Positions 1,355-43,294 of a DNA stretch of 44,355 nt are shown piece by piece (positions within the stretch are counted from its first letter, which is position 1; each line of letters starts with the position of its first letter). The DNA is from Escherichia coli (lineage in GTDB: Bacteria; Pseudomonadota; Gammaproteobacteria; Enterobacterales; Enterobacteriaceae). The notes beneath the pieces are model-generated. The model saw nothing but the letters and a program-made list of their open reading frames with translations. It had not been told where the DNA came from and did no database searches. Where the stretch lies: the NCBI RefSeq assembly GCF_044324785.1, contig NZ_CP172130.1; one strand, written 5' to 3'. Made by a program: the position numbers and the translations under genes.

Positions 1355-1468
1355 CCTTTTCACTGTGATGCAGGATAGGGCAAACGCCGTAAAATGACGT
1401 CATTGACGCCATTTTACGGCGTTTGCCCGGTAACCTACAGTCGGTTCTTATTGGAGAATTTTATGAAA
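1355..1468. promoter_or_regulatory. oriT-like / beta-origin-like element, copy A of a ~110-bp inverted repeat pair; contains a perfect 19-bp palindrome
   Basis: GGGCAAACGCCGTAAAATG...CATTTTACGGCGTTTGCCC palindrome; about 85% identical in inverted orientation to 40331..40443 next to taxA; ends in GGAGAATTTT-ATG. Confidence 0.5.
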
Positions 1469-38619: not shown

Positions 38620-39792
38620 TTATAAGCCCAAAAACTTAATCCCTGTTTTCAGCTTCTGTTCTGACTGTAACGTGGATGCTTTCTGCTGCGTAAACTGCGC
38701 CATTCGCTGTTGTTGCTTCAACAGCATATCAGGGCTGTTCAGTACCAGCTCTTTGCTGGCTGAAGGTGTTCTGTCTACGCCCTTAACCCCCAGATTTTCT
38801 AACTGCCACTCATTTCTGTGAACCGTTTTCCAGCCATGCTGAACACCATTTTTATCGAGCGCCGGGATTTTTACTTCTTTCTGACCAAGTTTCTTCAGTC
38901 TGACAAGATCACCTGCTTTAACGCTTTCCCGCGAACATAAGTCCCCAAAATCAGCCCCCCAGTATGTTTTCTCAACCCCCTTGTTAAGAGTCTTTAGCTT
39001 TATAAAATGTTGCTTAGACTTTGTTTTATCGTTCTGATAATGGTCATAGCCAATATCAACAACCTCATAAACACCTTTCTGTCTTTTTGGTGCTGTATTA
39101 TGTGCATCTTTAACAGACTGATTAAGTCCATGCTGTTGCTTATGGGTCGCTTTAACGTCATAACCTTTTAACTTCAACTCTTCACAAAAACCTGTACGAA
39201 TTTCCCGTAAATCTTTTTTCCTGATATCAGCGCGTTTACCGTCATTATCTCGGATACGAAAAACAACATGAACGTGAGGATGTTCTTTCTTATCACAGTG
39301 GTATCCAAGAACAAAACGGTGATTAGGATATTTTTTCTGCATCGTTTTCCTGACAGACTCCAGCAAATCTTCAGGCTTTACTTTCGCTGAAACTGGAGGC
39401 GAGAAGACAATATTCTGTGTGATTTTTTTATTTTCTTTACCTTTATCATTCATCACATGCTGAGGATCATTAGCACGATCTATCATGTGCTCTTTAGCTT
39501 CCAGAATTTCGTCACCCGTCCATACCCGACCGCTTTCACTCATCACTGGTAGCTCTGACTCACGGCTCATATAATCAATACTGTTCCGAATCCCCTGACG
39601 AGTAATAGCACCTCCAGATATTTTGACAACAACCTCCTTACTGGCACCCTTGCGGTTGATACGTTCCTGAACATTGCGGCTATAGTTCTTTCCACCATTT
39701 TTGACTTTGTGAGCGAAAGCTGACTTACGACCATTTTCTGATGACTTTCGTTTAACACGATATTCTTTATCAACGTAAACGCCCATAATCAC
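38620..39792 (-). CDS. taxC: Conjugative relaxase (MOBP-type)
   Basis: 390 aa; histidine triad HPHVHVV and N-terminal catalytic region; adjacent to taxA and the oriT-like repeat. Confidence 0.8.
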   Translation of the reverse strand: MIMGVYVDKEYRVKRKSSENGRKSAFAHKVKNGGKNYSRNVQERINRKGASKEVVVKISGGAITRQGIRNSIDYMSRESELPVMSESGRVWTGDEILEAKEHMIDRANDPQHVMNDKGKENKKITQNIVFSPPVSAKVKPEDLLESVRKTMQKKYPNHRFVLGYHCDKKEHPHVHVVFRIRDNDGKRADIRKKDLREIRTGFCEELKLKGYDVKATHKQQHGLNQSVKDAHNTAPKRQKGVYEVVDIGYDHYQNDKTKSKQHFIKLKTLNKGVEKTYWGADFGDLCSRESVKAGDLVRLKKLGQKEVKIPALDKNGVQHGWKTVHRNEWQLENLGVKGVDRTPSASKELVLNSPDMLLKQQQRMAQFTQQKASTLQSEQKLKTGIKFLGL

Positions 39793-40334
39793 ATCTCCAC
39801 TTTATTTGAAACAGTTCTCCCTTTACATAACATAATGTAATTCTCAAACTGATTCTTAAGATTAAAAATTTCTGTTGTAAGACGCTCCGCATCCTGATAG
39901 AAACCATCTTTATCAAGAACCCTGGTCTGATCATTAACAATGATATAATGGAAATTACGACCGATCTTATCAATTGAATTACGGCAACGATTCATCATCA
40001 GCAGTTCCTGGTCAAAGAAATCCAGTTCATTTTCAAGTGTCGTCTGTATGCGGTAACGACATTCTCGTGATAACGTCCATCCGTGACGATTAGCAGCTCT
40101 TTCAATATCAGCCCTTTGTTTACCTGTTAAGTACATCGTTGTTTTGATAAAATCATTATTATCAAAAAACGTATTTATATCCTTACTGACAGCTTTACTT
40201 TTTAATAAAGCATTTGCTAAAAGTTTCATGCCTTTAGCTACTGTTAAAGCTGGTTCATCCGGATAAAGAGTTTTAAGGCAATCCAGCAAATCATCATGCT
40301 GATTTTCATCAATTCTGAATTGAACTTTTTTCAT
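39789..40334 (-). CDS. taxA: Relaxosome accessory protein
   Basis: 181 aa from the ATG preceded by GGAGAA; the 23-codon extension in the ORF track is the translated inverted repeat. Confidence 0.65.
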   Translation of the reverse strand: MKKVQFRIDENQHDDLLDCLKTLYPDEPALTVAKGMKLLANALLKSKAVSKDINTFFDNNDFIKTTMYLTGKQRADIERAANRHGWTLSRECRYRIQTTLENELDFFDQELLMMNRCRNSIDKIGRNFHYIIVNDQTRVLDKDGFYQDAERLTTEIFNLKNQFENYIMLCKGRTVSNKVEM

Positions 40335-40443
40335 AAAATTCTCCAACAAGAACCGACTGTAGGTCACCGGGCAAATGTTGCGGAATGGCGTCAGAGACGT
40401 CATTTTGCAGTGTTTGCCCTATCCTGCATCGCAGTGAATCTGG
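40331..40443. promoter_or_regulatory. oriT-like / alpha-origin-like element, copy B of the inverted repeat pair
   Basis: About 85% identical (inverted) to 1355..1468, including the GGGCAAAC...GTTTGCCC palindrome and the shared GGAGAATTTTATGAAA translation start. Confidence 0.5.
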
Positions 40444-40659
40444 CGCCGCTCATAAATTGTGCTTGAGCATCAACAAAAATGCAAAAAGGCTGATGTTGTC
40501 ATGGCTGAACATACGTACGTCTGCGACCGGAAACCCGATCAATGCGGTAAGGACAGTGCCGTCAGGTTCGCTCCGCGAACGGTCTGGCAGGAAGCGCAAG
40601 CGCAGTCCCGCGCAATATATCAGAAAGCACCTCCCGAAATACGGGAGGGCTTCGGCTAT

Positions 40660-40932
40660 TCAGCTAAGGTTGCTCTGTTCAGGTTGCTGAGTGTAGCCTT
40701 CCATGCCCTGACGGGCATCAAAAAGCCAGCGCCGGAAGTTACTCATTCTTTCAAGGTTAGCTTTGCTTGGTTTTTTGCCACGATTACCACTTAATATCCG
40801 CCAGACTCGTATTCCTGCTTTATTAGTCCAGTGCAGAACAATTTCTCCTTTGCTGTTAAAAGCAAGAGAAAAGCGTACAGCGCCTTGCCGCAATTCTCCA
40901 CTGACAAAGGACACAAAATCATGTTTTGTCAT
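40660..40932 (-). CDS. Hypothetical small protein (90 aa), presumed leading region
   Basis: Fourth of four tightly packed small ORFs downstream of a strong promoter. Confidence 0.45.
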   Translation of the reverse strand: MTKHDFVSFVSGELRQGAVRFSLAFNSKGEIVLHWTNKAGIRVWRILSGNRGKKPSKANLERMSNFRRWLFDARQGMEGYTQQPEQSNLS

Positions 40933-40944
40933 AAAGCCTCCGGT

Positions 40945-41142
40945 TTATTTATCTGTTCTCTTTTGTGTCTTTTTTTCCAGTGCTTTTCTGAGTAATGCCA
41001 TATACTCAGGAAAGACATGGAATGGCATCAAAGGGAAAACCGGACGCCCACCCTTTTCAACGTCATTTATTGCTGATAATATGCGTTCCGACATTTTATT
41101 CCTCGCAATAGAATCAGGTGTCACGGTATCAGGTTGCCCCAC
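40945..41142 (-). CDS. Hypothetical small protein (65 aa)
   Basis: Tightly packed small ORF in the same string. Confidence 0.4.
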   Translation of the reverse strand: MGQPDTVTPDSIARNKMSERILSAINDVEKGGRPVFPLMPFHVFPEYMALLRKALEKKTQKRTDK

Positions 41143-41163
41143 AACCTGATACCATCTTTATCT

Positions 41164-41343
41164 TTACTTTATTAACTTCTCAATTGCTTCTTTTTTTGCT
41201 TTCTCCTGTTCTGATGGTGGGTATGCAAGGTCATACCAGTTATCAATACAATGAATAACTCTTTCTTTAGATAATCCACATTGCTCAAACCAAAATTTTA
41301 TATTTCGGTTTAATGATGCTTTTGCGCTAAACTCTCTTTCCAT
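41164..41343 (-). CDS. Hypothetical small protein (59 aa)
   Basis: MEREFSAKASLNRNIKFWFEQCGLSKERVIHCIDNWYDLAYPPSEQEKAKKEAIEKLIK; found by manual translation (under the ORF-track cutoff). Confidence 0.35.
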   Translation of the reverse strand: MEREFSAKASLNRNIKFWFEQCGLSKERVIHCIDNWYDLAYPPSEQEKAKKEAIEKLIK

Positions 41344-41385
41344 TTTCAGACCTTTACTAAAAGGGGGAATATCCCCCCTGATTAA

Positions 41386-41715
41386 TTAGTAGTAAGAAGA
41401 AAATCGATGTTTTTCTTCCGGTAGAGTTTTATACGCAGTTTCAAAATCTTCGATTTTGATTGCCAGCTCATCACCAAAATCTTTTATCTGACGCTTAAAA
41501 CATTCACCAGTAAAATCATTTAAAACGGGAGTTTTAAAGCCGACCATTGAATCGGTATATTCTGAATTGGCGCGAATCTCGCGAACGGTGACGGTTTTTT
41601 TACCGTGAACAGAAAGAACCTGGTAGAAGGTTACATTGGTTTGCTCATAGCCCCATGATGATACAAAGATATCACCAACAGAGACAGTATCATTTTTAAA
41701 AGTTAATACTTTCAT
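41386..41715 (-). CDS. Hypothetical protein (109 aa), first gene behind duplicated promoter-operator-leader copy 1
   Basis: Start directly preceded by GGGAGCTAAA and a conserved leader hairpin. Confidence 0.5.
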   Translation of the reverse strand: MKVLTFKNDTVSVGDIFVSSWGYEQTNVTFYQVLSVHGKKTVTVREIRANSEYTDSMVGFKTPVLNDFTGECFKRQIKDFGDELAIKIEDFETAYKTLPEEKHRFSSYY

Positions 41716-41805
41716 TTTTAGCTCCCGCCCAGCTTGGGCTCTGGATGAAAGAGAACCTGTTTCCCTTTCCTGTGTTTTATTATACCTGCATTTGCAGGTA
41801 TGGCA
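41716..41805 (-). promoter_or_regulatory. Promoter-operator-leader cassette, copy 1 (TTGCCA-16 bp-TATAAT with ACCTGCAAATGCAGGT palindrome; leader hairpin GCCCAAGCTGGGC)
   Basis: About 90 bp, roughly 90% identical to 42627..42716. Confidence 0.6.
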
Positions 41806-41807
41806 AG

Positions 41808-42029
41808 TTATTTTTTTACCAGCCTGTAAGACGGATGCATATTTGCTAATAACAATAAATACTGATATTCACCAATAGATAAAGAACGACTGGCCTTACC
41901 TGCACTTTCTTTCATCTGCCAGGAATTCAGTTGATAACCAAAAATATCAGCAGCTTCTTTAAGAGTAAGACCTGCCGCAACCCGCGCATTCTTTACTTCT
42001 TCAGGTGTAGGTTTATTCTGCATTTTCAT
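41808..42029 (-). CDS. Small HTH (XRE-like) DNA-binding protein (73 aa)
   Basis: Helix-turn-helix signature ...AAGLTLKEAADIFGY...; overlaps the upstream 81/85-aa ORF by 17 nt. Confidence 0.55.
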   Translation of the reverse strand: MKMQNKPTPEEVKNARVAAGLTLKEAADIFGYQLNSWQMKESAGKASRSLSIGEYQYLLLLANMHPSYRLVKK

Positions 42030-42270
42030 CCCCTTTTGTCAGACAATCACACAAAACCCCATTATCCAGAAGCATCAATGATGCCAGGTTGAGTTTTTCG
42101 TCCATTATCAATTTTCTTACTGTTTTCCTGCTTTTAGTTTTATCAATCGTCTTAACATATTTTAAGACGTGAAAAACCGTATCCCCATCTTCATCCATCG
42201 TTCTGATTACATAGGAGTAATTACCTCTGTTTTTCTTAATTATCTTATCTTTATCCATATTATTCCTCAT
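42013..42270 (-). CDS. Hypothetical small protein (81-85 aa) translationally coupled to the HTH gene
   Basis: Probable start at 42258 (GAGGAA then ATG, MDKDK...). Confidence 0.45.
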   Translation of the reverse strand: MRNNMDKDKIIKKNRGNYSYVIRTMDEDGDTVFHVLKYVKTIDKTKSRKTVRKLIMDEKLNLASLMLLDNGVLCDCLTKGDENAE

Positions 42271-42271
42271 A

Positions 42272-42300
42272 ACTAAAAAAGGGGCTTAATGCCCCTTTTT
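42272..42300 (-). terminator. Intrinsic terminator hairpin, plausibly bidirectional
   Basis: AAAAAGGGGCATTAAGCCCCTTTTTT. Confidence 0.6.
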
Positions 42301-42302
42301 AT

Positions 42303-42626
42303 CTATAACACGGTATGTAACCCTGTTTCCTGTGTAAATAAACGCGCTAACTGATCACAATAGATATTATCGAATCTTGAAATATCTTTAACTTCAGCAC
42401 CACGTACACGAGAAAATTTCACCTGGTACGTATCAGTAAAATCCAGTTTAATTTTTACTAAGTTGATGCCTTTCATTGCAAAATTTGACGGCAAACGGAA
42501 AGTTAACCCACACTCACCGTTTTCATCAAAGTAAGAAAAACTTTTAGCACCAGTCATAACAATAAAACGATTACCACCAAGTTGACGTAAAATCTCTGTG
42601 GCTACAGATTTAGCGTAGTTTTGCAT
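42303..42626 (-). CDS. Hypothetical protein (107 aa) behind promoter-operator-leader copy 2
   Basis: Start preceded by GGGAGGTTAAA and the conserved leader hairpin. Confidence 0.5.
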   Translation of the reverse strand: MQNYAKSVATEILRQLGGNRFIVMTGAKSFSYFDENGECGLTFRLPSNFAMKGINLVKIKLDFTDTYQVKFSRVRGAEVKDISRFDNIYCDQLARLFTQETGLHTVL

Positions 42627-42716
42627 TTTTAACCTCCCGCCCACTTTGGGCTCTGGATGAAAGAGAACCTGTTTCCCTTTCTTGTGTTTTATTATACCTG
42701 CATTTGCAGGTATTGC
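42627..42716 (-). promoter_or_regulatory. Promoter-operator-leader cassette, copy 2 (TTGCAA-16 bp-TATAAT with the same palindrome and leader hairpin)
   Basis: Direct repeat of 41716..41805. Confidence 0.6.
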
Positions 42717-42771
42717 AAATTTTTAATGCTCTCGCTCTGACTGTAAACAGTCAATCATTTGATGATTAATC

Positions 42772-43053
42772 TTAGCGCAAATCTGCGATCTGATAGACTT
42801 CGCTGCTTTCCCTTCTTCCAACGGCAATAACGAGTAAAACGACTTTCTCATCAATGACTTGGTATACAAGTCTGTAGCCAGATGCACGAAGTTTGATTTT
42901 ATAGCGATCAGCATGACCATGTAACCGGGCTGCGGGTACGCGTGGATTTTCCAGCCGTTCTGCCAGTTTCTTTTTGAATTGTTCACGGATGGTGTGGCCG
43001 AGTTTCTGCCATTCCTTCAGTGCTCTACGGTCAAAAGCCAGTTCATAGGTCAT
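42772..43053 (-). CDS. stbE: RelE/ParE-family toxin of a type II toxin-antitoxin pair
   Basis: 93 aa; RelE-like sequence (…YKIKLRASGYRLVYQVIDEKVVLLVIAVGRRE…); 11-nt overlap with the upstream antitoxin gene. Confidence 0.8.
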   Translation of the reverse strand: MTYELAFDRRALKEWQKLGHTIREQFKKKLAERLENPRVPAARLHGHADRYKIKLRASGYRLVYQVIDEKVVLLVIAVGRRESSEVYQIADLR

Positions 43054-43294
43054 CCAGGTTAACCTTCACAATTTCCGGGTTTTTCATGCGCTCATCAGCA
43101 ACAGCGTTTAACTCAGCATCTTCAGCGAGTTCCCGATAGTAGGCGTAAAGTTTTGGTGGAACGCAATAGAACGCCGGTTCGTTTCGGTTCAGGATCGCAA
43201 CAGCGTCCCCTTCACCTTCAGCTACGGTTCCCATAGGATTTTTTTTCAGGTCAGTAATACTGGCCGCTGTGGTTGTCAGAATTTGATAGCTCAT
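43043..43294 (-). CDS. stbD: RelB/Phd/YefM-type antitoxin
   Basis: 83-aa acidic protein immediately upstream of and overlapping the RelE-like gene. Confidence 0.75.
   Translation of the reverse strand: MSYQILTTTAASITDLKKNPMGTVAEGEGDAVAILNRNEPAFYCVPPKLYAYYRELAEDAELNAVADERMKNPEIVKVNLDDL

What the first reader, a model, noticed from the sequence alone, without database searches (positions are those of the whole stretch)
40660..41715. String of four small uncharacterised ORFs next to oriT: candidate anti-defence / establishment genes
Four tightly packed small ORFs (109, 59, 65 and 90 aa) sit on the side of the oriT-like element opposite the transfer genes, which would enter a recipient first. 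Leading regions of conjugative plasmids commonly carry anti-restriction, anti-SOS and other anti-defence genes. None of these proteins shows a motif I recognise.
Basis: inference. Interest (0 to 1): 0.6.

Follow-up and report, generated by a model that had tools for sequence, protein, structure and literature searches.

The report
Repressor-controlled leading-region genes of IncX1 plasmid
The four small genes next to the transfer origin of this IncX1 resistance plasmid are real, selected genes that probably enter a recipient first and belong to a seven-gene set switched by a duplicated promoter/operator cassette and an anti-CRISPR-associated-type repressor, but what the four proteins do is still unknown and none resembles a known anti-defence protein.

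Summary
Observation confirmed. Four co-oriented minus-strand ORFs lie at 40660-41715 of an IncX1 conjugative plasmid. B, C and D are under purifying selection (dN/dS 0.09-0.31). C is probably 49 aa rather than 65.

Polarity is supported by inference. An inverted repeat followed by TATCCTG|C on the + strand puts these genes first into the recipient, with the transferred strand as their template. A second, inverted oriT 5.3 kb away makes the whole inter-oriT segment leading whichever oriT fires.

The string is half of a regulon. A 98-nt promoter-operator-leader cassette is duplicated, before G-F-E and before A-B-C-D. E is an HTH protein homologous to the anti-CRISPR-associated repressor Aca10 (hhalign 96.9%), with a similar palindromic operator inside the promoter. 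Homologous cassettes occur in IncX3, IncI2 and pOXA-48. In pOXA-48 they precede the A homologue and the antirestriction gene, and the E-like Orf20 is experimentally essential.

Best reading: a repressor-gated, zygotically induced establishment regulon. An anti-defence role is plausible but unproven.

The parts
40329..40438 (+). Long inverted repeat, copy alpha, containing oriT-alpha and the start of taxA
   Evidence: 87% identical over 110 bp to 1468-1359 on the opposite strand. IncX plasmids are reported to carry two oriTs in long inverted repeats (PMC3402527, PMC3332091).
40369..40419 (+). oriT-alpha inverted repeat (24-nt arms, 3-nt spacer, 75% complementary)
   Evidence: I1. It lies immediately 5' of the nick motif, as in MOBP (RP4-type) oriTs.
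40420..40427 (+). Nick-region motif TATCCTG|C (MOBP consensus YATCCTG|Y); inferred nick between 40426 and 40427 on the + strand
   Evidence: The motif is conserved in both copies of the long inverted repeat. The nick position is inferred from the MOBP consensus and has not been mapped.
1359..1468 (-). Long inverted repeat, copy beta, with oriT-beta (nick motif at 1370-1377 on the - strand), next to ddp3
   Evidence: Its inverted repeat is nearly perfect (23 of 24).
40630..40648 (-). Terminator-like hairpin after D (CCTCCCG-loop-CGGGAGG followed by a T-rich tail)
40660..40932 (-). ORF D, 90 aa, pI 10.9, alpha-beta3-alpha fold with a disordered tail; IncX-core gene closest to oriT
   Evidence: 1,546 plasmids; dN/dS 0.09-0.16; pLDDT 87.
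40945..41094 (-). ORF C, conserved 49-aa form (the mechanical ORF runs to 41142, 65 aa)
   Evidence: dN/dS 0.16-0.31; 1,530 plasmids.
41164..41343 (-). ORF B, 59 aa; equals the C-terminal half of a 112-114-aa protein of IncX3 and Serratia plasmids
   Evidence: 1,555 plasmids.
41364..41378 (-). GC-rich hairpin followed by a T-run between A and B (terminator-like)
   Evidence: A similar hairpin follows G (D6).
41386..41715 (-). ORF A, 109 aa, all-beta SH3/Tudor/BAH-like barrel; member of a very large unnamed family; absent from IncX3
   Evidence: 2,835 plasmids; 3,801 clusters; pLDDT 93.
41713..41812 (-). Promoter-operator-leader cassette, copy 2 (drives A and probably B-C-D). Contains -35 TTGCCA, 16 nt, -10 TATAAT (41806-41779), the palindrome ATACCTGCAAATGCAGGTAT (41782-41801), and a leader with two hairpins and the Shine-Dalgarno
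   Evidence: (D1).
41808..42023 (-). ORF E, 71 aa, XRE/MqsA-type HTH protein homologous to Aca10; proposed repressor of both cassettes
   Evidence: (hhalign 96.9%, E 1.7e-10).
42013..42258 (-). ORF F, 81 aa, overlaps the start of E; fast-evolving with no family match
42281..42295 (-). GC-rich hairpin (GGGGC-loop-GCCCC) followed by a T-run between G and F
   Evidence: Read directly from the sequence. It resembles the hairpin after A (D6 and I1).
42303..42626 (-). ORF G, 107 aa (phrog_9437, unknown function); shared with IncI2 (78%), absent from IncX3
42624..42724 (-). Promoter-operator-leader cassette, copy 1 (drives G-F-E). Contains TTGCAA, 16 nt, TATAAT (42718-42691) and the palindrome at 42694-42713
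42772..43294 (-). stbD/stbE (Phd/YefM-RelE/ParE) toxin-antitoxin pair bounding the regulon on the replicon side

Best explanation
The four ORFs are the oriT-proximal half of a two-operon, seven-gene regulon in the leading region of an IncX1 plasmid.

Proposed mechanism:
1. The relaxase TaxC, with TaxA, nicks the + strand at TATCCTG|C (40426/40427). The + strand then enters the recipient 5' to 3', so D, C, B, A, E, F and G are the first genes in, and the incoming strand is their template.
2. After complementary-strand synthesis, two near-identical strong sigma-70 promoters fire in the repressor-free recipient. These are the cassettes at 41713-41812 and 42624-42724.
3. Their products include E, an Aca10-type dimeric HTH repressor. 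E binds the 20-bp palindrome that spans each promoter's -35/-10 spacer and overlaps the start of the -10, and shuts both operons down. The result is a short burst of expression (zygotic induction).
4. The burst-expressed small proteins act on recipient factors or on the incoming DNA to help the plasmid establish. They are A (beta-barrel), the B-C-D trio (D is basic and looks like a nucleic-acid binder), G and F.

Status of each step:
- Shown: gene reality, cassette duplication, operator symmetry and covariation, E-Aca10 homology, and association with the leading side.
- Inferred: nick position and polarity, E binding to the operator, burst expression, and an establishment or anti-defence role.
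- Unknown: the biochemical targets.
For: Polarity:
- The inverted repeat plus YATCCTG|Y motif lies on the + strand directly upstream of taxA/relaxase.
- The gene order (small genes, then oriT, then accessory protein, then relaxase) is the same as in pOXA-48, where the run contains ssb and an antirestriction gene.
- The template-strand orientation matches the leading-region rule (PMC11541004).

Regulon:
- A 98-nt direct repeat at 92% identity holds an 11/12 and a 10/12 consensus promoter.
- The perfect palindrome occurs only at those two sites in 44 kb, against 0.02 expected.
- Homologous cassettes occur in IncX3, IncI2 and IncL/M.
- Six of nine palindrome arm positions changed on both sides and none on one side only. 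89% of cells in the three tested helices are paired, against 36-46% in slid controls.

Repressor:
- E matches Aca10 (7XI5) with hhalign probability 96.9%, E 1.7e-10 and 35% identity. The equivalents of Aca10 R44, Q37 and G49 are conserved.
- Aca10 binds ATACGCTCATTGAGCGTAT inside a TTGCAA-N16 promoter (PMC9410881). Here the palindrome is ATACCTGCAAATGCAGGTAT inside TTGCAA/TTGCCA-N16-TATAAT.
- The tandem E-like protein of pOXA-48 is Orf20. It can be deleted only with complementation, and transconjugants receiving the deletion plasmid stop dividing (PMC12365149).

Link to establishment:
- In pOXA-48 the same cassette precedes both the A homologue and the antirestriction gene.
- The A family lies on the leading side in 5 of 5 backbones.
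- 92-94% of plasmids carrying A, B, C or D are conjugative.
- The genes are under purifying selection.
Against: - No protein of the four matches any known anti-restriction, anti-SOS or anti-CRISPR family or structure.
- No Frpo-like single-strand promoter hairpin is present, so expression must wait for second-strand synthesis.
- A terminator-like hairpin after A may limit expression of B-C-D from the cassette in IncX1.
- The nick site, E-operator binding and the timing of expression are all unmeasured.
- The covariation rests on only three independent lineages.
- With the second oriT, some transfers would deliver these genes as the non-template strand, 1.4-5.3 kb from the leading end.
- Aca-type HTH proteins are generic regulators, so homology to Aca10 does not show that the regulated genes are anti-CRISPRs.
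Confidence: 0.6

Rival explanations
1. At least one of the four proteins is a genuine new anti-defence protein, such as an inhibitor of type I restriction, of type I-E/I-F CRISPR-Cas, or of another recipient immune system. It would be expressed from an acr-aca-like module. This is a more specific version of the best explanation.
For: - E is homologous to Aca10 and has an Aca10-like operator.
- G-F-E has the acr-acr-aca operon layout.
- The same cassette drives the annotated antirestriction gene in pOXA-48.
- Leading regions are enriched for anti-defence genes (PMC11541004).
- A and G are mobile between plasmid groups and F evolves fast, as is typical of counter-defence genes.
Against: - There is no sequence or fold similarity to any known Acr, Ard, Klc or Psi protein.
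- D is very basic and highly conserved (dN/dS about 0.1), which is unlike most fast-evolving inhibitors.
- B-C-D are fixed IncX core genes rather than variable cargo.
- No functional data exist.
Confidence: 0.35
2. B-C-D, and especially D, are DNA-processing or replication accessories of the IncX backbone rather than counter-defence proteins. They could be relaxosome or oriT architectural factors, protectors or primers of the incoming single strand, or modulators of the R6K-type alpha/beta origins that coincide with the long inverted repeats.
For: - D is IncX-specific, always directly next to oriT and taxA, strongly conserved and basic (pI 10.9).
- D has an alpha-beta3-alpha fold whose best, though weak, structural match is the RNA-binding SRP9/14.
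- B, C and D co-occur in the same roughly 1,540 plasmids as a fixed trio.
- TaxA/ddp1 and ddp3 in this region are already known to act on both transfer and replication (PMC3332091).
- One A-domain protein is fused to a primase fragment.
Against: - The genes are transcribed from a repressor-gated cassette shared with non-Dtr genes. In IncX3 and Serratia the cassette sits directly before B-C-D.
- That arrangement points to burst expression in the recipient rather than constitutive donor function.
- From memory, not checked here, published R6K work defines taxA, taxB and taxC as the Dtr genes.
Confidence: 0.25
3. F-E is a type II toxin-antitoxin pair, toxin first as in mqsR-mqsA or higB-higA. The cassette palindromes would simply be antitoxin operators, and the four ORFs would be passengers with no establishment role.
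For: - E and its relatives hit the MqsA-antitoxin and 'antitoxin Xre-like HTH' Pfam families.
- F overlaps the start of E.
- The E-like Orf20 of pOXA-48 is essential for plasmid maintenance.
Against: - F matches no toxin family in PHROGs, NCBIfam, PADLOC or PDB.
- F is poorly conserved between IncX groups, 26-32% identity.
- The operator is duplicated in front of operons that contain no F-like gene. There are up to six or more copies in pOXA-48, one before an antirestriction gene.
- That pattern fits a global regulator better than a toxin-antitoxin autoregulator.
Confidence: 0.1
4. The ORFs are non-functional filler between oriT and the replicon.
For: No known domains were found, the proteins are very small, and B looks like a truncated remnant in IncX1.
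Against: - dN/dS is 0.09-0.31 with saturated synonymous sites.
- The genes are conserved in about 1,500-2,800 plasmids.
- The AlphaFold models are confident.
- There are dedicated promoters, Shine-Dalgarno sequences and terminators.
Confidence: 0.03

Closest known systems
acr-aca operons controlled by Aca10 (acrIC7-acrIC6-aca10 of Pseudomonas citronellolis)
   Same: - E is a detectable homologue of Aca10, with the equivalents of R44, Q37 and G49 conserved.
- The operator is a roughly 20-bp perfect palindrome with ATAC...GTAT outer half-sites, lying within a TTGCAA-N16 promoter.
- In G-F-E the repressor gene is last, after small unknown genes.
   Different: - The regulated proteins have no similarity to AcrIC6/7 that could be tested, or to any solved Acr.
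- The operator is duplicated to control a second operon in trans.
- The setting is a plasmid leading region rather than a phage or island.
- No CRISPR inhibition has been shown.
CUP elements and the ArdK regulon of the IncN pKM101 leading region
   Same: Repeated conserved upstream promoter elements precede several leading-region genes. They are bound by a plasmid-encoded repressor that also autoregulates, and they are thought to give controlled expression during establishment (PMC6289460).
   Different: - The repressor family is different: Aca10/XRE-MqsA-like rather than ArdK.
- Sequence similarity between the cassettes and the CUP elements was not tested.
- IncN CUPs drive the known ardA and ardB genes. 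In IncX1 the driven genes are all of unknown function, and only the IncL/M version drives an annotated antirestriction gene.
KorC-klcA (kilC) and other kil-kor regulons of IncP and IncL/M; pOXA-48 Orf20
   Same: - A small HTH repressor has its palindromic operator between -35 and -10.
- The repressor is essential because its absence is deleterious. The E-like Orf20 of pOXA-48 can only be deleted with complementation (PMC12365149).
   Different: - pOXA-48 korC is a different gene from the E-like orf20.
- That paper leaves Orf20's targets unknown. The link between Orf20 and the repeated cassettes is my inference.
Frpo/ssi single-strand promoters of IncF and IncI1 leading regions
   Same: The genes are in the same position and orientation, with the transferred strand as template, and the presumed purpose is the same: early expression in the recipient.
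   Different: No long hairpin that would rebuild -35/-10 in single-stranded DNA is present (z -1.6 and -2.0). The IncX/IncI2/IncL/M cassette is a conventional double-strand promoter gated by a repressor.

Membership tests
ArdA (DNA-mimic antirestriction, PF07275) | Sequence or profile match to ArdA, and a strongly acidic DNA-mimic protein | tested here: not met
   [not shown]
ArdB/KlcA (PF03230) | Profile or fold match to the KlcA/ArdB antirestriction domain | tested here: not met
   No match or 67-68. The pOXA-48 antirestriction gene is a different gene that only shares the promoter cassette.
PsiB/PsiA (anti-SOS) | Profile match to PF06290 or PF06952 | tested here: not met
   Pfam scans of A-D returned nothing at E <= 0.001.
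Anti-CRISPR (acr) genes | Homology to a described Acr family | tested here: inconclusive
   No match to any solved protein, Acrs included, for A, B (long form), C, D, F or G, and none in NCBIfam or PHROGs. The AcrIC6 and AcrIC7 sequences could not be retrieved, and no dedicated Acr HMM library was available.
Anti-CRISPR (acr) genes | Genetic linkage to an Aca-type repressor with an operator in the promoter | tested here: met
   E is homologous to Aca10. The operator palindrome lies in both promoters. G-F-E is linked in cis and A-B-C-D through the duplicated operator.
Anti-CRISPR (acr) genes | Inhibition of a CRISPR-Cas system | not testable with these tools
   Requires interference or conjugation assays.
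Aca10 family (for protein E) | Sequence homology, including DNA-binding and dimerisation residues | tested here: met
   phmmer against PDB puts 7XI5 first at E 0.023. The profile-sequence hhalign gives probability 96.9%, E 1.7e-10 and 35% identity over 51 columns. R46, Q36 and G51 of E align with R44, Q37 and G49 of Aca10.
Aca10 family (for protein E) | Binds a palindrome overlapping its own promoter as a dimer and represses it | not testable with these tools
   Indirect support only: operator position, perfect dyad symmetry and symmetric covariation.
Leading-region genes of conjugative plasmids | Located just 3' of the nick on the transferred strand, on the side of oriT away from the relaxase | tested here: met
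   The inverted repeat plus TATCCTG|C lies on the + strand at 40369-40427. The ORFs are at 40660-42626, and taxA/relaxase are on the other side. The nick position is inferred from the MOBP consensus and not mapped.
Leading-region genes of conjugative plasmids | The transferred strand is the template strand | tested here: met
   All seven genes are on the minus strand and the transferred strand is the plus strand. The rule comes from PMC11541004.
Leading-region genes of conjugative plasmids | Frpo/ssi-type single-strand promoter | tested here: not met
   DNA folding of the + strand shows only the short palindrome hairpins, with z-scores of -1.6 and -2.0.
Leading-region genes of conjugative plasmids | Transient (zygotic) induction in new transconjugants | not testable with these tools
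   Needs RNA-seq or reporters in transconjugants.
CUP/ArdK-type leading regulon (IncN) | Repeated conserved upstream promoter elements before several leading genes, plus a cognate repressor | tested here: met
   Copies per plasmid are 2 in IncX1, IncX3 and Serratia, 4 in IncI2 and at least 6 in pOXA-48. This is a functional analogy; sequence homology to the CUP elements or to ArdK was not tested.
Type II toxin-antitoxin (F-E) | Recognisable toxin partner | tested here: not met
   F has no hit in PHROGs or NCBIfam, only a weak AbiEi hit in PADLOC (E 0.039), and no PDB hit.

The most novel reading that the evidence does not exclude
The 98-nt promoter-operator-leader cassette and its Aca10/Orf20-type repressor mark a previously unrecognised, modular counter-defence regulon. 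It would be shared by IncX, IncI2 and IncL/M plasmids, which are major carriers of NDM, mcr-1 and OXA-48. Under this reading the genes plugged behind the cassette are new families of anti-defence or host-takeover proteins. They include protein A (a family of 3,801 clusters with no Pfam entry), G, F and the IncX trio B-C-D. Derepression of these genes would explain why Orf20 is essential in pOXA-48.
Probability: 0.35. Interest if true: 0.8.

Novelty: new member of a known kind. Interest (0 to 1): 0.55.

Why it matters
IncX plasmids are among the main vehicles of carbapenem and colistin resistance in Enterobacterales, yet the genes that enter a recipient first are all annotated as hypothetical.

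This analysis turns a vague "string of small ORFs" into a defined, testable unit. That unit consists of two operons, a duplicated promoter/operator cassette, and a candidate repressor related to an anti-CRISPR-associated regulator.

The same cassette logic recurs in IncI2 (mcr-1) and IncL/M (pOXA-48) plasmids, where it precedes an annotated antirestriction gene. It also offers an explanation for a published but unexplained result, the essentiality of pOXA-48 orf20.

If the cassette is a reliable flag for establishment or anti-defence genes, it gives a simple sequence handle for discovering new ones. Protein A's very large unnamed family would be one. The repressor would also become a possible target for blocking plasmid establishment.

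Tried and rejected
1. PF13342 (topoisomerase C-terminal repeat) as a clue to D. The only carrier, P0121, is a chimera whose first 38 residues match D and whose remainder is unrelated.
2. Frpo-like single-strand promoters. Folding the transferred strand around cassette 2 and around the segment between the nick and D gave only short local hairpins, with z-scores of -2.0 and -1.6.
3. Known RNA families in the leader or the region. Rfam returned only two sub-threshold chance hits.
4. Fusion partners of the A domain. Pfam, PHROGs and NCBIfam on long relatives gave nothing consistent. The only hits were one primase-fragment fusion and weak LPD5/DUF3560 hints.
5. Looking up these proteins by accession in the Samuel et al. 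supplement gave no occurrences.
6. Retrieving the AcrIC6 and AcrIC7 sequences for a direct comparison. The supplements list accession numbers only.
7. PADLOC (defence systems) returned only noise-level hits.
8. pOXA-48 korC as the E homologue was rejected. By gene order the E-like tandem HTH protein is orf20, and korC is a separate gene.
9. The weak WD40-repeat hits of D in PDB cover a single beta-hairpin motif and are not meaningful.
Full report
**1. What the window is**

The window is an IncX1 conjugative plasmid (MOBP relaxase, MPF_T). The region 40400-42700 is 100% identical to many E. coli and Salmonella IncX1 plasmids, such as pDKX1-TEM-52 and NZ_CP104480.1.

On the minus strand the local order is: T4SS genes, NusG-like gene, relaxase (taxC/mobP1, 38620-39792), taxA/ddp1 (39789-40334), oriT, the small ORFs, a RelE/ParE-Phd toxin-antitoxin pair (42772-43294), and then the replicon (pir at 1-855).

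**2. The observation**

They are annotated only as "hypothetical protein" in RefSeq and as "conserved hypothetical" orf04-07 in pECTm80 (PMC3332091).

They are real genes. Comparing IncX1 with IncX3 and a Serratia IncX-like plasmid gave these dN/dS values, with synonymous sites near saturation:

| Gene | dN/dS |
|---|---|
| B | 0.23 |
| C | 0.16-0.31 |
| D | 0.09-0.16 |
| taxA (control) | 0.04 |

- C is conserved only in its 49-aa form.
- B corresponds to the C-terminal half of a 112-114-aa protein in the other IncX groups.

**3. Polarity**

An imperfect 24-nt inverted repeat (40369-40419) is followed immediately by TATCCTGC (40420-40427) on the + strand. This is the MOBP layout (inverted repeat, then YATCCTG|Y), known from RP4 and R64. 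I take that from established knowledge and did not test it here.

Nicking there and 5'-to-3' transfer of the + strand sends D, C, B and A in first and taxA/taxC in last. Because the genes are on the minus strand, the transferred strand is their template. That is the orientation reported for leading-region gene families (PMC11541004).

The same gene order occurs in pOXA-48 (small genes reading towards oriT, then accessory protein, then relaxase). There the run contains ssb and an antirestriction gene, which are standard leading-region markers.

There is one complication. IncX plasmids have two oriTs in long inverted repeats (PMC3402527, PMC3332091).
- I found the second copy at 1359-1468, inverted and 87% identical, with its nick motif on the minus strand.
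- The 5.3-kb segment between the two nick sites holds the small ORFs, the toxin-antitoxin pair, pir and bis.
- That segment therefore leads whichever oriT fires, but it enters from opposite ends and as opposite strands.

**4. The four ORFs are half of a regulon**

A 98-nt direct repeat (92% identity) lies at 41715-41812 and 42627-42724. Read on the minus strand, each copy contains:
- a near-consensus sigma-70 promoter: TTGCCA-16-TATAAT (11/12) and TTGCAA-16-TATAAT (10/12);
- a perfect 20-bp palindrome, ATACCTGCAAATGCAGGTAT, spanning the -35/-10 spacer and overlapping the start of the -10. It is found only at these two sites in the plasmid, against 0.02 expected;
- a leader of about 60 nt with two small hairpins that ends at the Shine-Dalgarno and ATG.

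One copy precedes G-F-E and the other precedes A-B-C-D.

**5. The cassette is conserved across plasmid groups**

Homologous cassettes exist in other backbones and always abut a start codon:

| Backbone | Copies | Genes preceded |
|---|---|---|
| IncX1 | 2 | G, A |
| IncX3 | 2 | J-domain gene, long form of B |
| Serratia IncX-like | 2 | J-domain gene, long form of B |
| IncI2 | 4 | A homologue, G homologue, and two others |
| IncL/M pOXA-48 | at least 6 full | A homologue, DUF1380 gene, the annotated antirestriction gene, and others |

The palindrome differs between groups:

| Group | Palindrome |
|---|---|
| IncX1 | ATACCTGCA-AA-TGCAGGTAT |
| IncX3 | TACCATCA-TA-TGATGGTA |
| IncI2 | ATAGGTCAG-TT-CTGACCTAT |

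The differences are always symmetric. Six of nine arm positions changed on both sides and none on one side only. Across the three helices tested, 89% of cells are paired, against 36-46% when the partners are slid. This is what an operator co-evolving with a dimeric protein would show. It rests on only three lineages.

**6. The repressor**

E (71 aa) is an XRE/MqsA-type HTH protein.
- Its closest solved relative is 7XI5, which is Aca10, the repressor of the acrIC7-acrIC6-aca10 operon.
- A profile of E homologues matches Aca10 residues 5-56 with hhalign probability 96.9%, E 1.7e-10 and 35% identity.
- The residues shown to matter in Aca10 align with identical residues in E: R44 (critical for DNA binding), Q37, and G49 (dimer interface).
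- Aca10 binds ATACGCTCATTGAGCGTAT inside a TTGCAA-N16 promoter (PMC9410881). The IncX1 operator has the same position and the same ATAC...GTAT outer half-sites.

pOXA-48 encodes a protein with two tandem E-like domains. By gene order it is Orf20.
- Published Tn-seq and deletion work found Orf20 essential: it could be deleted only with complementation.
- Transconjugants receiving the deletion plasmid elongated and lost the plasmid. The authors left its function open (PMC12365149).
- That phenotype fits a repressor of burst-expressed genes that are harmful when derepressed. The link between Orf20 and the cassettes is my inference.

**7. The proteins**

*Protein A*
- 109 aa, pI 5.7. The AlphaFold model is confident (pLDDT 93) and all-beta.
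- Its family is very large, with 3,801 clusters at 50% identity. Members are either stand-alone or the C-terminal domain of proteins of about 190 aa. There is no Pfam family.
- It occurs in 2,835 PLSDB plasmids, 92% of them conjugative.
- It lies on the leading side, reading towards oriT or the relaxase, in all five backbones examined: IncX1, IncL/M, IncI2, an Acinetobacter MOBF plasmid and a Xanthomonas MOBP plasmid.
- IncX3 lacks A and G. IncI2 has both.
- In IncX1 each of these two genes sits directly after a cassette and is followed by a similar GC-rich hairpin. They therefore look like inserted promoter-gene-terminator modules. The insertion of A appears to have truncated the ancestral long B gene.

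*Proteins B, C and D*
- B, C and D co-occur in about 1,530-1,555 plasmids and form an IncX-core trio.

*Matches to known families*
- None of A, B, C, D, F or G matches any named (functionally annotated) family in Pfam (A-D only), NCBIfam, PHROGs or PADLOC, or any PDB sequence.

**8. Mechanism and rivals**

The best-supported picture is a repressor-gated, zygotically induced establishment regulon. It is functionally analogous to the CUP/ArdK regulon of IncN (PMC6289460) and to acr-aca operons. It is distinct from the single-strand Frpo promoters of IncF and IncI1 (PMC12672017), because no Frpo-like hairpin is present.

- Whether any of the four proteins is truly anti-defence remains open; I put that at about 0.35.
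- A serious alternative for B-C-D, and for D in particular, is a DNA-processing or replication accessory role tied to oriT and to the R6K-type origins.
- A toxin-antitoxin reading of F-E is weak, because F matches no toxin family and the operator controls operons that lack an F-like gene.

**9. Novelty and verdict**

The genes and their location are already in databases as hypothetical proteins, and the idea that leading regions carry establishment or anti-defence genes is established.

In the literature I could search, I did not find the following described:
- the duplicated cassette;
- its homologues across IncX, IncI2 and IncL/M;
- the Aca10/Orf20-type repressor link;
- the mosaic origin of the four ORFs.

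I classify the finding as a new member of a known kind, of moderate interest, with concrete experiments available.

Noticed in passing
window 1359-1468 (- strand) and 40329-40438 (+ strand): There are two oriTs in a long inverted repeat (87% identity). The beta copy has an almost perfect 24-nt inverted repeat (23 of 24), while the alpha copy is degenerate in the middle of its arms (75%). The 5.3-kb segment between the two nick sites (small ORFs, stbDE, pir, bis) is the leading DNA for either oriT. pir and bis also have their proximal transferred strand as template.
   Followed up: partly
L003 (pOXA-48-type plasmid NZ_CP039944.1) 1820-13348: At least six near-identical copies (89-97%) of a roughly 90-nt promoter-leader cassette precede leading-region genes, including the antirestriction gene, DUF1380 and the A homologue. 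A diverged copy precedes orf19-orf20. The spacer in this version is not a perfect palindrome, and the cognate E-like protein (Orf20) has two tandem HTH domains in one chain.
   Followed up: partly
window 41716-41778 and 42627-42690 (- strand); alignments A6 and A7: The cassette leader keeps two small hairpins across IncX1, IncX3, IncI2 and IncL/M, with compensatory changes (3 and 2 pairs changed on both sides). One hairpin lies directly before the Shine-Dalgarno. This could be an mRNA stability or translation element. There is no Rfam match.
   Followed up: partly
L007 1353-1868 (IncX3), L008 2733-3248 (Serratia), L010 3423-3920 (Acinetobacter): A J-domain (DnaJ-like) protein gene recurs in the leading-side gene runs of unrelated plasmids. 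In IncX3 and Serratia it sits directly behind a cassette copy, in the position that G occupies in IncX1.
   Followed up: no
[not shown]
   Followed up: no
window 40385-40690 (+ strand): A 101-aa ORF annotated as orf08 in pECTm80 runs across oriT, the nick region and the terminator of D. It is not annotated in RefSeq records and is probably spurious.
   Followed up: no
protein P0121: A Logan-assembly protein joins the first 38 residues of D to a topoisomerase C-terminal repeat (PF13342). It is either an assembly chimera or a recombination junction with the plasmid topB gene.
   Followed up: yes
window 10322-11044, 11637-12359, 15237-15959 (- strand): Three ORFs of identical length (240 aa) lie in the accessory region. 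They probably represent repeated insertion-sequence copies flanking resistance cargo. I did not examine them.
   Followed up: no
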